Source: Amoebidium appalachense (Eukaryota; Protista; Ichthyosporea). Taken from it: a stretch of 64,000 nucleotides of DNA. Below the pieces are notes generated by a model, which was not told where the DNA came from, searched no databases, and was given only the letters and a program-made list of their open reading frames with translations. Where the stretch lies: positions 5,331,294-5,395,293 of the forward strand of contig CAVNZM010000010.1 in NCBI GenBank assembly GCA_963693365.1, read 5' to 3'. The translations under genes and the position numbers were made by a program. Positions within the stretch are counted from its first letter, which is position 1, and every line of letters begins with the position of its first letter. Positions 45,201-48,200 of the stretch are shown here, piece after piece.

Positions 45201-48200
45201 TGCACACACAAACACATGCATATATACAGGCACATGCATGTGTACGTGCACAGTTTCGTTAAATGGAATACCAAGGGCTGTTTCTCAAATCAGAAAAATC
45301 AATACACCACTCAAGCCATTCTTCGGCGGTCTATCCATCTTTTTATTGCTCAGATACCCACAACCCCTCTAGCTCCTAGCAGGCCAACTTCAAAAACGTA
45401 ACACCAACCAATGACGACCGATGTATTTTGCAGATTTGATTCCCGATTACCCATCCACCCTAACTTTCACGTTTTGCCTTCAAAGACACCCTCAAGCAAA
45501 CCAAACCCCGAATAAAGTATCACCGTGATATTCCAAGGGAACACCTATCGTTTTCACATTTTGACTTCAAACACACACTCAAGTACGCTAAACCCAACCT
45601 GAAGTCGTCAGTGCGATATTCCAAGTGAGAACACATATCCGTTATTATACCACTCACGCCCAATCAGATACCCGATATGTCCCTCATAACCAGGGCAGAG
45701 ACCTGGTGTGTCTCCTGTACATCCCCCTGCCTGTCGGTTATCTTGCGGCCCCTTCCTAGTTAGCACTCCCTTCCTTCCCCGCCACCCCCCCCCCCCCTCC
45801 TGCCCCCTCCCCCTCCCCGTGTACTCCCGGTGTACTCTCACTCTTGCGATACAACCATAACCGCAGAATACTCACACTTCAAGAACCCCGTCGCTCAGTA
45901 GGGTTGTGAGGAAGTAGACGGACTGGTGCCACAGGAGGAACCGGTTGTTGTGTTGCATCGGTGTCTGCATATGGCACGAAAATAAGAACACCACCACCAC
46001 CACCAAGATGTACACAACCCCAGACGGATGAGTATAATAATACCTTCCCTATCTTTCTTATTGCCCCACCCTCTCTCTCTCTCTCTCTCTCTCTCTCTCT
46101 CTCTCCCCCCCCCCCCCCCCCCCAAAAAAAAAAAAAAAAAAAAAAAAAACCCTTTCCGCCCTCTGTCCATTACCATCCAAACACAAGTATTAGGTGCAGG
46201 CACACATCTACACAGATGCACTTTAAAGTAGTGATAGTGCATCGATTTGTGTGATGTTTGTCAGTTTTCGAGCCAACTGCTGTTTTCCCACCTCCCTTAG
46301 TGCCTGCAGACGAAAGCATGTGTGTTGGCAAGTCAGGTGGGAATCACCAAACCGAAGTCAATCGATGGGCAAAGGAGGTCGTGGTGACGGTGTGAGTGTG
46401 TGTGTGTGCAAGGGGGGGGGGGGGGGGGGGGGGGGGGGGTTGAATGCGGAACACGGTACGAAGTACACATACACGAAGGACACATGCAAAGGCAAACATT
46501 CAAGTATGCAACATCAGCCATACGCACAGTATGCGTCATAAGGGGGGGGGGGGGGGGGGGGGTACACTTACATGGTGGCTCGAGGCTCTGTGTTTGTCTG
46601 GTGTAGTGGGTGGTGTTGTTGTTTGTGGCTGTGTCAGAGAATGCTGGCGGGACAGAGAGTGTTGGTGGGAGAGCGAGCGTGGTGTGGAGCTCTGAGATGT
46701 GGTTCTCCGCCTGTGTGTGCCGTCCAGCCCCTGCTGAGATAACAGTTGTATATAAGTATATGGAATTTGGTGGCGTTTTATCTGTGGTTTTCACTTTGCA
46801 TAGATAACCACAAGTTTGTTCCGTGTGCTTTTGCAATATGAGCGTGCCCATAAGCACTATTCGTGAATGTGTGTGTTGCGTGCACGTTTAGTCAAGAGAA
46901 GTGGGAGTGGAAAGATAACTGATCACAAAGCAAAGGAAAGCAACAGCAGCAGCAAAACAAAGGGGCGGCAGGGAGGAGGGGGGGGGGGGGTTTGAATGCG
47001 GAACACAGTACGAAGTACGCATACACGATGAGAAGCATGGTGCAGGACACATGCAAAGGCAAACATTCAACTATGCAGCATCAGCCATGCGCACAGTATG
47101 CGTCATAAGCAGAGCCCATCCTCAGGGAGGGCCCAAGTCATCAATTGCGTCTGAGTTTCGACCCCTTAGCCCGCGTATATACGACGCTCCAACTCAGACA
47201 GCAGCATCAACTGAACTTGGGTGGGTCAACCCGTCTTGATCAAAGACGAGCAGGGTTGCTTATGCAAGCAAGGTGAGCAAAACGGTGAAGATGTGTGTGC
47301 AAACTAATGCAGTGCAGCGACAAACGCGTGTGCTTACAGATGCACGACACAGAGCAACCATGCCCGGTTGCATGGAAGTAAAGATGTCTCCACACAGTGG
47401 TCTGAGGGGGGGGGGGGGGGGGGGGGGGGGGGGGGGGGGCCTGGGGGGAGGAGTTATGCACGCATTACAGCGTCGGCAGCAGAAAGGCGCAAAAAGGAAA
47501 AAAAAACATTTGAAAGTACATAAAGAAATCAATCATTAAAGAAAAGAAGAGAAAGAGAAGAAAGAAGAAGATGTTGAAGGGGGGGAGGGGGGGGGGGGGG
47601 GGGGGAGGGGGGGGGGGACGAGGGGGTGATCAACCTGAGCATTGTGAGATGAGTGTCTGCGCAGTTTAGTGTGTGGGTGGTGGTAGTACAGTTCAGGCAC
47701 CAGGTGGTAGCCGTCCTTGTGGTCCACTAGCACACTGTCAAGAAGACTGCGGTGCTTGCTGAGCTCAGACCCACTCTGCATGGGAAATGGGGATAGGGTG
47801 AGCCCGGGGCAGGAGGGAAGGGGGGAGGGAGGAAGAGGAGAGGCAGGGGGGAGGAGGGGGAGGGGGGAGGGGAAGGAGGGGTATAGGGAGCAGGGGGGAG
47901 GGGGAGAGGGAAGATGGGGAAGGGGGGAGGGGGGGGGGGGGGGGGGGGGGACGGGGGGGGATGGGAGGGGGGATGGGAGCAGTAGTTGAATGTAGGAGGG
48001 GCGAGGGAAAGAGGCCAGCATGAGGGATAAAAAGAGAAGCGAGGTGGGAGGACACTGGAGGTGAGACTTCGTTGCCTTTTCTTTCTCTCTTTATTTACTC
48101 TTTTTTTTTTTTTTTTTTTTTTGGGGGGGGGGGGGGGGGTCTGAATGTGTAAAAATGTACGAAGTACACAATCACAACGGACAACACAATGCAGAGTGCA

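What the first reader, a model, noticed from the sequence alone, without database searches (positions are those of the whole stretch)
47104..47264. Candidate rewired hammerhead: covarying pseudoknotted RNA with core segments in a non-canonical order
Seen, minus strand, three copies (47104-47264, 52673-52825, 59578-59730): a closing stem ATAAGCA/TGCTTAT encloses hairpin GCTCGTCT-YTGATCA-AGACGGGT and three interleaved helices with compensatory changes. These are GACCT/AGGTC vs GACCC/GGGTC; CAGTATCTGAGT/ACTCGGGTACTG vs TGC-T-GTCTGAGT/ACTCAGAC-GCA; and GGG(G)/(C)CCC vs GGAG/CTCC. Invariant GAGTT, C-GAAAC and CTGAGGA sit in hammerhead register: stem III joins GAA-A to U-H, and stem I joins the bases after GUU to those before CUGAGGA (one copy has a mismatch there). 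The order is NUH, GAAA, CUGANGA, which is none of types I/II/III; the stem-II equivalent comes from an upstream strand and CUGAGGA lies in a hairpin loop. Established: Penelope-like elements carry hammerheads in their terminal repeats. Inference: a topologically new hammerhead or a new structured RNA that standard descriptors would miss. Support rests on only two independent sequence types, and stem I is 3-4 bp.
Basis: partly seen in the sequence, partly recalled or inferred. Interest (0 to 1): 0.9.

Follow-up and report, generated by a model that had tools for sequence, protein, structure and literature searches.

The report
Rewired hammerhead in Penelope-like retroelement tail
Three copies of a repeat, one of them just behind a Penelope-like jumping gene in what is likely a single-celled relative of animals, hold all the parts of a hammerhead ribozyme in a scrambled order, with one helix likely completed by a separate upstream strand; the RNA is predicted, not shown, to cut itself, which would explain why this element group was reported to lack standard hammerheads.

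Summary
Observation confirmed. The three minus-strand copies hold GUU, GAAA and CUGAGGA in hammerhead register; descriptor scores 24 and 25 (two copies; the third fails on a stem I mismatch) against one hit of 17 in 200 window shuffles; no Rfam match. The order itself is known: type SGC (Eckert 2023), validated but reported only from metatranscriptomes. I add a missed covarying helix IV and a K-turn-like bend. Copy 2 lies 1.8 kb behind a Naiad/Chlamys-type RT (DKA motif), a clade published as lacking canonical hammerheads; the host is likely an ichthyosporean. The same wiring, with unrelated helix sequences and no canonical stem II, stands behind the RT stop in 9 of 80 metagenome RT loci (2 of 47 clusters) and, read by eye, in 10 published Naiad consensi; 6 others carry type CSG. 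Most RT loci lack it (0 of 21 in a second set). Cleavage is untested; in the window a plain SGC fold with a mismatched stem II remains possible. The scan noted this wiring before on other genomes.

The parts
47104..47264 (-). Copy 1 of the rewired hammerhead (subtype A), in a 5'-truncated element copy 46991-47404 between poly(C) runs, in an intron of the phosphorylase kinase beta-like gene
52673..52825 (-). Copy 2 (subtype B), intact core; element 3' end at about 52586, followed by poly(C)
59578..59730 (-). Copy 3 (subtype B, about 98% like copy 2), G.A mismatch at 1.1-2.1, likely impaired; 5'-truncated copy 59492-59788 between poly(C) runs
47257..47263 (-). Copy 1: 5' strand of closing stem P1 (pairs 47105-47111)
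   Evidence: invariant, 7 bp
47229..47251 (-). Copy 1: hairpin P2; loop holds the palindrome UGAUCA (47237-47242), invariant in all three copies
47223..47227 (-). Copy 1: upstream strand of stem II (G10.1 at 47227), pairs 47160-47164 just before GAAA
47215..47220 (-). Copy 1: helix IV 5' strand (pairs 47133-47138); joins the far ends of stems I and II
47139..47210 (-). Copy 1: K-turn-like junction between helix IV and stem III (strand 47207-47210 against 47139-47142, 3-nt bulge 47143-47145); non-standard bulge in copies 2 and 3
   Evidence: sequence; definition
47188..47193 (-). Copy 1: GUU triplet (47191-47193), predicted cut 47191/47190, then stem I 5' strand (pairs 47126-47128)
47156..47159 (-). 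Copy 1: GAAA (G12-A15.1); copy 2 52724-52727; copy 3 59629-59632
47119..47125 (-). Copy 1: CUGAGGA (C3-A9); copy 2 52687-52693; copy 3 59592-59598
54704..56173 (-). 5'-truncated reverse transcriptase frame of a Naiad/Chlamys-type Penelope-like element (DKA, PMGTNCA, RYIDD; stop right after the RT); begins at a poly(C) run; 1.8 kb upstream of copy 2 on the same strand
46440..46542 (-). 5'-truncated tail of subtype A, without ribozyme
48140..48228 (-). 5'-truncated tail of the element, without ribozyme
42262..42348 (-). 5'-truncated tail of the element, without ribozyme
44271..44340 (-). short diverged tail of the element
38084..38112 (-). fragment that starts at a mutated CUGAGGA block and holds the 3' strand of P1
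31067..59344 (-). Host gene, phosphorylase kinase beta-like, 30 exon-like matches; copies 1 and 2 lie in its introns in sense, copy 3 upstream of the first matched exon

Best explanation
This is a hammerhead core in the scrambled S-G-C order, in three copies of a repeat whose tail likely belongs to a Naiad/Chlamys-type Penelope-like retroelement, and it is predicted to fold with stem II built from a separate upstream strand and to cut itself after GUU. Order along the RNA: closing stem P1, hairpin P2, stem II strand (10.x), helix IV, stem III, GUU, stem I, small hairpin, stem II strand (11.x), GAAA, stem III, helix IV, stem I, CUGAGGA, exit into P1. It amounts to a type-SGC ribozyme closed into a ring and reopened between A9 and G10.1, the position where PLE hammerheads often carry an extra base; the RNA's two ends leave the core there instead of through stem I, II or III. 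Helix IV takes the place of the helix that joins the far ends of stems I and II in type SGC, and a K-turn-like bend would fold it back along stems III and II (inferred). Role (inferred): cutting at each terminal repeat would trim tandem or read-through transcripts to unit length, as proposed for other PLE hammerheads. Shown: sequence, pairing potential, covariation, RT context, recurrence in other elements. Inferred: fold, catalysis, role.
For: Core and stems in register in 3 of 3 copies. Upstream stem II is 5-6 Watson-Crick pairs closed by G10.1-C11.1 and beats the canonical partner (-8.5 vs -5.6 and -7.3 vs -2.6 kcal/mol); it has a two-sided change, the canonical one has a fixed G.G mismatch. 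Same wiring with different helix sequences on the sense strand behind the RT stop in 8 loci of one family (146-176 nt after the stop) and in L173 (score 23, none as high in 30 shuffles of the 101 RT loci), where 10.1-11.1 cannot pair canonically with 0 or 1 inserted base. L173 has a full ORF with N-terminal GIY-YIG, CxC and DKA; RT identities among the three families 28-37%. By eye, 10 Naiad consensi in the supplement of PMC8557442 show it (one search places 26, 28, 29, 30; one search places 31, 37, 40, 41; one search places 5, 6) and 6 show type CSG, the circular permutation of the same topology (one search places 34, 35; one search place 7; one search places 6, 7, 8). That paper reports Naiad/Chlamys as lacking canonical hammerheads while noting split 'half cores'. 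Types SGC and CSG cleave in vitro. A crude length budget lets one molecule close the fold.
Against: No cleavage or RNA data. Only two sequence types in the window; stem I is 3-4 bp and broken in copy 3; H17 is U. An equally good upstream partner turns up in 3-18% of shuffles for the window copies and 6-50% for the other families, so that helix alone is weak evidence. The second family shows no two-sided change among 9 close copies, has U-A at 10.1-11.1, and its scores (18-20) were reached 12 times in 30 shuffles of the RT loci. 71 of 80 metagenome RT loci (42 of 80 have 500 nt or more after the stop) and 21 of 21 genome-contig loci lack it; I recognised none in the Chlamys consensi among the places listed. 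The window's covariance model finds nothing in 100 RT loci, so the families are linked by descriptor and position, not by alignment. The link of copy 2 to the RT crosses 1.8 kb with about 500 nt of simple repeats. The hairpin round CUGAGGA never varies in the window.
Confidence: 0.66

Rival explanations
1. In this family the active fold is ordinary type SGC: CUGAGGA, one inserted U, then a stem II of G-C, G-U, G.G, C-G, U-R; the upstream strand and the hairpin round CUGAGGA form an 'off' state that holds the ribozyme shut.
For: The published SGC pattern has exactly CUGANGA-U-G pairing C-GAAA; 4 of 5 pairs can form, 6 of 7 in copy 1; the two octopus consensi also have UGG after A9.
Against: Weaker than the upstream partner, fixed mismatch, no two-sided change; impossible in the second family and L173 and, by eye, in most of the Naiad consensi; helix IV links the upstream strand to the far end of stem I as the SGC joining helix does.
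Confidence: 0.15
2. The rewired core is real but forms between two copies: the loose ends of one (upstream stem II strand plus the CUGAGGA block) dock on the loop of another (cut site, GAAA), so only tandem or paired RNAs are cut; the palindromic P2 loop would start the pairing.
For: Invariant palindrome in the P2 loop and different palindromes in the small hairpin of the two subtypes; metazoan PLE hammerheads are proposed to act as dimers; by eye some Naiad consensi (one search place 37; one search places 28-30) have stem III and helix IV nearly continuous, too stiff to fold back.
Against: The window copies have a bend and enough linker for a monomer; the three copies are dispersed, not tandem; P2 is absent from the other families.
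Confidence: 0.11
3. The fold no longer cuts, or never did: it is a conserved 3' structure that the element's RT binds to start copying, with hammerhead-like letters kept for structure or as a relic.
For: It sits near the 3' end where copying starts; copies in sense inside introns of a host gene are tolerated; most related RT loci lack it; PLE minimal hammerheads cut poorly in vitro.
Against: All catalytic positions (C3-A9, G12-A14, A15.1-U16.1, H17) are kept across families whose helices share no sequence; five truncated tails were inserted without the motif or with only part of it, so a complete copy is not needed in the inserted DNA.
Confidence: 0.08

Closest known systems
Type-SGC hammerhead ribozyme (HRIMA-1 and SGC variants; Eckert et al. 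2023, PMC10085705)
   Same: Order cut site, GAAA, CUGANGA; double pseudoknot; a helix joining the far ends of stems I and II; U next to G10.1.
   Different: There block C is unbroken: the stem II strand follows CUGANGA within 1-2 nt, an assumption that gives six types. Here the best stem II strand lies upstream of everything, a four-block order outside the six. SGC was found only in metatranscriptomes, none in genomes of known organisms; here it is in a eukaryotic retroelement. Linkers 26-30 and 30 nt exceed the published pattern's limits.
Type-CSG hammerhead ribozyme (same paper)
   Same: Same non-circular topology; by eye it ends six nematode-block Naiad consensi, so both forms occur in this element clade.
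   Different: Opened at another point; stem II is canonical.
Type I hammerheads in pLTRs of Penelope/Poseidon, Neptune, Hydra and other PLEs (Cervera and de la Pena 2014, PMC4209133)
   Same: Position at the element end, sense strand, G10.1-C11.1, extra base between 9 and 10.1, proposed role in trimming precursor RNA.
   Different: Three-way junction without pseudoknots, order C-G-S, minimal stem III; here stem III is 9-13 bp and the order is reversed.
Naiad/Chlamys N-terminal EN+ PLEs (Craig et al. 2021, PMC8557442)
   Same: DKA motif, RT at the C-terminus, 5' truncation, insertion in (C)n runs.
   Different: Published as lacking canonical hammerheads; no ichthyosporean member among the 54 Naiad and 36 Chlamys rows of the metadata part I read; endonuclease and CxC are cut off in the window copy.

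Membership tests
Hammerhead ribozyme (core) | CUGANGA, GAAA and NUH present | tested here: met
   3 of 3 copies
Hammerhead ribozyme (core) | Stem III from A15.1-U16.1 outward | tested here: met
   9, 13 and 13 consecutive pairs; one two-sided change
Hammerhead ribozyme (core) | Stem I between the bases after H17 and before C3 | tested here: met
   4 bp in copy 1, 3 bp in copy 2, one two-sided change; 1.1-2.1 broken in copy 3
Hammerhead ribozyme (core) | Stem II closed by G10.1-C11.1 next to G12 | tested here: met
   by the upstream strand, 5-6 bp; the covalent link A9-10.1 is absent in this reading
Hammerhead ribozyme (core) | Self-cleavage after H17, lost on G5/G8/G12 change | not testable with these tools
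   no experiment; no RNA reads could be examined
Types I, II, III | Order CGS, GSC or SCG with a pseudoknot-free junction | tested here: not met
   order is S, G, C; no Rfam hammerhead match
Type SGC | Order S, G, C | tested here: met
Type SGC | Stem II strand follows CUGANGA within 1-2 nt (unbroken block C) | tested here: inconclusive
   window: 2 pairs, a G.G mismatch, then 2-4 pairs; not met in the second family and L173
Type SGC | Helix joining far ends of stems I and II | tested here: met
   helix IV, 6 bp, 100% paired, one two-sided change, in the rewired reading
Type SGC | Fits the published RNAmotif pattern (N7=U, linkers up to 8 and 15 nt, stem I at least 4 bp) | tested here: not met
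   pattern compared by hand with N7=G and linkers of 26-30 and 30 nt
Naiad/Chlamys PLE | DKA in place of DKG upstream of the RT | tested here: met
Naiad/Chlamys PLE | RT at the C-terminus, no endonuclease behind it | tested here: met
   stop follows the RT; no Pfam domain
Naiad/Chlamys PLE | N-terminal GIY-YIG and CxC motif | not testable with these tools
   window copy is cut off before them; present in relative L173
Naiad/Chlamys PLE | 5' truncation and microsatellite targets, (C)n in Chlamys | tested here: met
   7 copies end at one 3' end before a C-run
Chlamys rather than Naiad | RT falls outside the animal Naiad clade | tested here: inconclusive
   quick tree of 57 rows: outside a 30-row clade (SH-aLRT 100) with the Pinctada proteins and L173, unresolved among 27 rows with plant and algal proteins; no labelled reference families in the tree
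K-turn | 3-nt bulge after a regular helix, then G.A and A.G pairs | tested here: inconclusive
   met in sequence in copy 1; copies 2 and 3 keep the tandem pairs but have a 2-nt bulge with two extra bases opposite

The most novel reading that the evidence does not exclude
A seventh, four-block hammerhead wiring, opened inside the catalytic strand between A9 and 10.1 and braced by a fourth helix with a kink, is an active and old ribozyme of the whole Naiad/Chlamys clade, from animals to a unicellular relative of animals and plant-side elements; with type CSG it makes non-circular permutations common genomic ribozymes rather than a metatranscriptome rarity, and in some families it cuts only when two copies pair.
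Probability: 0.5. Interest if true: 0.92.

Novelty: new variant of a known kind. Interest (0 to 1): 0.8.

Why it matters
[quoted passage not shown] Standard descriptors and Rfam miss it, so counts of genomic hammerheads would be too low.

Tried and rejected
Rfam: nothing at the copies at E<=1 and 0 matches at gathering score in 20 RT loci. No whole genome is held and no sequencing runs were examined, so copy number, expression and RNA ends are open. Pfam missed the RT; it was found by reading the frame. RT scan of viral contigs: none. Pattern scans of viral contigs: 95 and 5 matches, none with the full motif above score 18; treated as chance. My first descriptor (gap limit 70) missed L173, the wider one found it. 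A relaxed-core scan of the 3' regions (one change in CUGANGA, stricter helices) added no family and itself recovered only 5 of the 9 known loci. The covariance model did not bridge families. Minimum-energy folds do not give the pseudoknotted state and were not used as evidence. Rejected by eye: CUGAUCA in the P2 loop or UGAUGA before helix IV as the C block (no C3-G8 pair or no 10.1-11.1 pair); plus-strand reading; HDV, twister and pistol folds (compared from recall; no Rfam match). The careful RT tree did not finish; the quick tree is used. PMC10162972 passages showed no such variant. Scan notes by place and by sequence gave nothing.
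Full report
Observation. Each holds GUU, GAAA and CUGAGGA, with stem III of 9, 13 and 13 consecutive pairs and stem I of 4, 3 and 0 pairs from the core (copy 3 has G.A at 1.1-2.1, then three pairs). 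On the alignment of the three copies the seven-helix structure is paired in 99.2% of 124 cells with four two-sided changes, one each in upstream stem II, helix IV, stem III and stem I; 7 of 500 shuffles reach this, and slid controls pair 33-47%. With three rows of two types this is weak by itself. A descriptor for the wiring scores copies 2 and 1 at 25 and 24; 200 shuffled windows gave one hit, of 17 (the descriptor was written after seeing the copies). Rfam has no match there at E<=1. A covariance model finds only these three copies in the window.

Setting. The window is an intron-rich eukaryote (Piezo, PQ-loop and ankyrin exons). A phosphorylase kinase beta-like gene runs on the minus strand with 30 exon-like matches from 59344 to 31067; one exon is 92% identical to an EukProt protein labelled 'Ihof', next best 71%. 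I recall that label as Ichthyophonus hoferi, so the host is likely an ichthyosporean. Copies 1 and 2 lie in introns in sense; copy 3 lies upstream of the first matched exon. The copies belong to a repeat with a fixed 3' end before a C-run and variable 5' ends; four more tails and one fragment lack the full motif. 1.8 kb upstream of copy 2, in the same intron and strand, is a 5'-truncated RT frame (54704-56173) with DKA, PMGTNCA and RYIDD and a stop right behind the RT; 867 homologues at E<=0.001, best 37%. These are the marks of the Naiad/Chlamys clade of Penelope-like elements, which also prefers (C)n targets. In a quick tree of 57 rows the RT falls outside a 30-row clade with the Pinctada proteins and is unresolved among rows that include Mesostigma, Trebouxia and Ceratopteris proteins. 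That copy 2 is the tail of this RT copy is likely, not shown: about 500 of the 1823 bases between are simple repeats.

What is known. Eckert et al. 2023 (PMC10085705; main text parts 1-6 of 8 read, supplement parts 1 and 8 of 42, figures not seen) divide the hammerhead into blocks S, G and C, name the order S-G-C type SGC, and validate SGC and CSG by cleavage and compensatory mutants. They assume CUGANGA and its paired neighbours cannot be interrupted, and found none of these in genomes of known organisms apart from one doubtful GCS case. So the order is not new. Their SGC pattern is CUGAUGA-U-G pairing C-GAAA with linkers up to 8 and 15 nt; the window has N7=G and linkers of 26-30 and 30 nt, so it escapes that pattern. 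Craig et al. 2021 (PMC8557442; abstract and 12 passages, supplement part 1 of 59 and six searches) report that Naiad and most Chlamys lack canonical hammerheads, yet mark 'HHR_core' and 'half_core' cases with the second half 35-50 nt away on either side.

Which stem II? In the window two partners exist for the strand before GAAA. After CUGAGGA and one U: G-C, G-U, G.G, C-G, U-R (80% paired, no two-sided change). Upstream: 5-6 Watson-Crick pairs closed by G-C, duplex energy -8.5 against -5.6 (copy 1) and -7.3 against -2.6 kcal/mol (copies 2, 3). The window alone does not decide: an equally good upstream partner arises in 3-18% of shuffles. I therefore fetched RT relatives: the best 80 of 517 metagenome loci and 21 loci from genome contigs. 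The wiring upstream strand - helix IV - S - G - C appears on the sense strand behind the RT stop in 9 of 80: eight loci of one family (L101, L103, L104, L107, L109, L115, L148, L174; 146-176 nt after the stop) and L173 (1605 nt after the stop); these are 2 of 47 sequence clusters. In both, 10.1-11.1 cannot pair with 0 or 1 base inserted after A9, and at most two pairs follow from it with 2 inserted, while the upstream strand gives 5-6 pairs. L173 has stem II 5 bp, stem I 5 bp, a long helix IV, score 23 (none as high in 30 shuffles of the 101 loci), by eye a 6-bp stem closing the two ends that leave A9 and 10.1, like P1 in the window, and a full ORF with N-terminal GIY-YIG. RT identities among the three families are 28-37%.

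Against. The eight-locus family has no two-sided change in 9 close copies, a U-A pair at 10.1-11.1, and scores of 18-20, which shuffles reached 12 times in 30 rounds; its support is position and full core. 71 of 80 loci have no sense-strand hit although 42 of 80 extend 500 nt or more past the stop; 0 of 21 in the second set; no Rfam ribozyme in 20 of the loci. Two viral control loci of 100 reach 15 and 18 by chance. The window model does not detect the other families.

Published consensi, read by eye only. In the Craig supplement I saw 55 of 62 places of CTGATGA, 25 of 25 of CTGAGGA and 23 of 23 of CTGACGA; CTGAAGA was not searched and motifs broken by line ends are missed. Ten Naiad 3' regions show the rewired form with upstream stem II of 4-6 bp in different sequences and helix IV of 5-15 bp (one search places 26, 28-30; one search places 31, 37, 40, 41; one search places 5, 6); by file order they include Naiad_Bfor (ctenophore, marked HHR_core; stem I only 2 bp), three Acropora families (one with a mismatch in stems I and II) and two Octopus families (one marked half_core). 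Six in the nematode block are canonical type CSG (one search places 34, 35; one search place 7; one search places 6-8). Five places in parts 17-19 have S-G-C order variants that I could not parse. I recognised none in the Chlamys consensi.

Mechanism. Join the ends of a type-SGC ribozyme and reopen it between A9 and 10.1: the result is this order, with helix IV as the SGC helix that ties the far ends of stems I and II. PLE hammerheads commonly carry an extra base at 9/10.1 (PMC4209133, 12 passages); that such a base bulges out and is tolerated I recall from De la Pena and Flores 2001 (title seen in a reference list only). A U precedes 10.1 in all three window copies. Helix IV must run back along stems III and II. 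Copy 1 has a standard K-turn sequence at that joint (regular helix, 3-nt bulge, G.A, A.G, U.U; definition and 60-degree angle in PMC3651934, 5 passages), copies 2 and 3 keep the tandem pairs with a non-standard bulge, and the octopus consensi show a standard one by eye; this lead came from scan notes e1-8668580 and e1-9565383. A crude length budget allows a monomer (56-59 A needed, up to 75-95 A available). Cutting after GUU would trim element transcripts, as proposed for other PLEs. Rivals: plain SGC with the upstream helix as an off switch (0.15); action only as a dimer, started by the invariant palindrome in the P2 loop (0.11); a non-cutting structure (0.08).

Novelty. Seven literature searches found no report of a hammerhead with stem II from an upstream strand, nor of permuted hammerheads in Naiad/Chlamys. 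The library lacks most subscription journals. This scan noted the same wiring before on animal and moss genomes; those notes are not independent support. I class it as a new variant of a known kind, interest 0.8.

Noticed in passing
window 47237-47242, 52799-52804, 59704-59709 (-): Invariant palindromic hexamer in the P2 loop; the small hairpin after stem I is also palindromic, in different sequences in the two subtypes. Possible dimerisation signals.
   Followed up: no
window 38084-59788 (-): All eight pieces of the element lie on the minus strand in or just upstream of the phosphorylase kinase gene, in sense; none found in 1-38000. Active copies would cut the host pre-mRNA inside introns.
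   Followed up: partly
PMC8557442 supplement, parts 13-16: Six Naiad consensi of the nematode block end in clean type-CSG hammerheads, a form published from two metagenome sequences only.
   Followed up: partly
PMC8557442 supplement, parts 17-19 (one search places 9, 10, 12, 13, 14): S-G-C order variants, several with CUGACGA inside a hairpin loop; not parsed.
   Followed up: no
L176 about 2800-2890; L180-L185 about 190-330 nt after the RT match; L190 about 480-510 nt after the match: Other structured-looking 3' motifs behind Naiad-like RTs, possibly twister-like or minimal hammerhead-like.
   Followed up: no
L099 7515-7655; L110 after 5563: Members of the eight-locus family with the cut site deleted (L099) or the motif broken off after GAAA (L110).
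   Followed up: partly
L105 about 1540 and 1840: Tandem repeat behind the RT with CUGACGA inside a hairpin but no GAAA in register.
   Followed up: no
window 7608-14834 (+), 20571-21140 (-), 24832-26964 (-): Exons of a Piezo channel, an ankyrin-repeat protein and a PQ-loop protein.
   Followed up: no
window 33773-34288: A roughly 500-nt self-complementary stretch (77% arm identity) in an intron of the host gene; perhaps a small inverted-repeat element.
   Followed up: no
L176-L196: 21 loci in prokaryote genome assemblies encode Naiad/Chlamys-like RTs, most likely host DNA carried into the bins.
   Followed up: no
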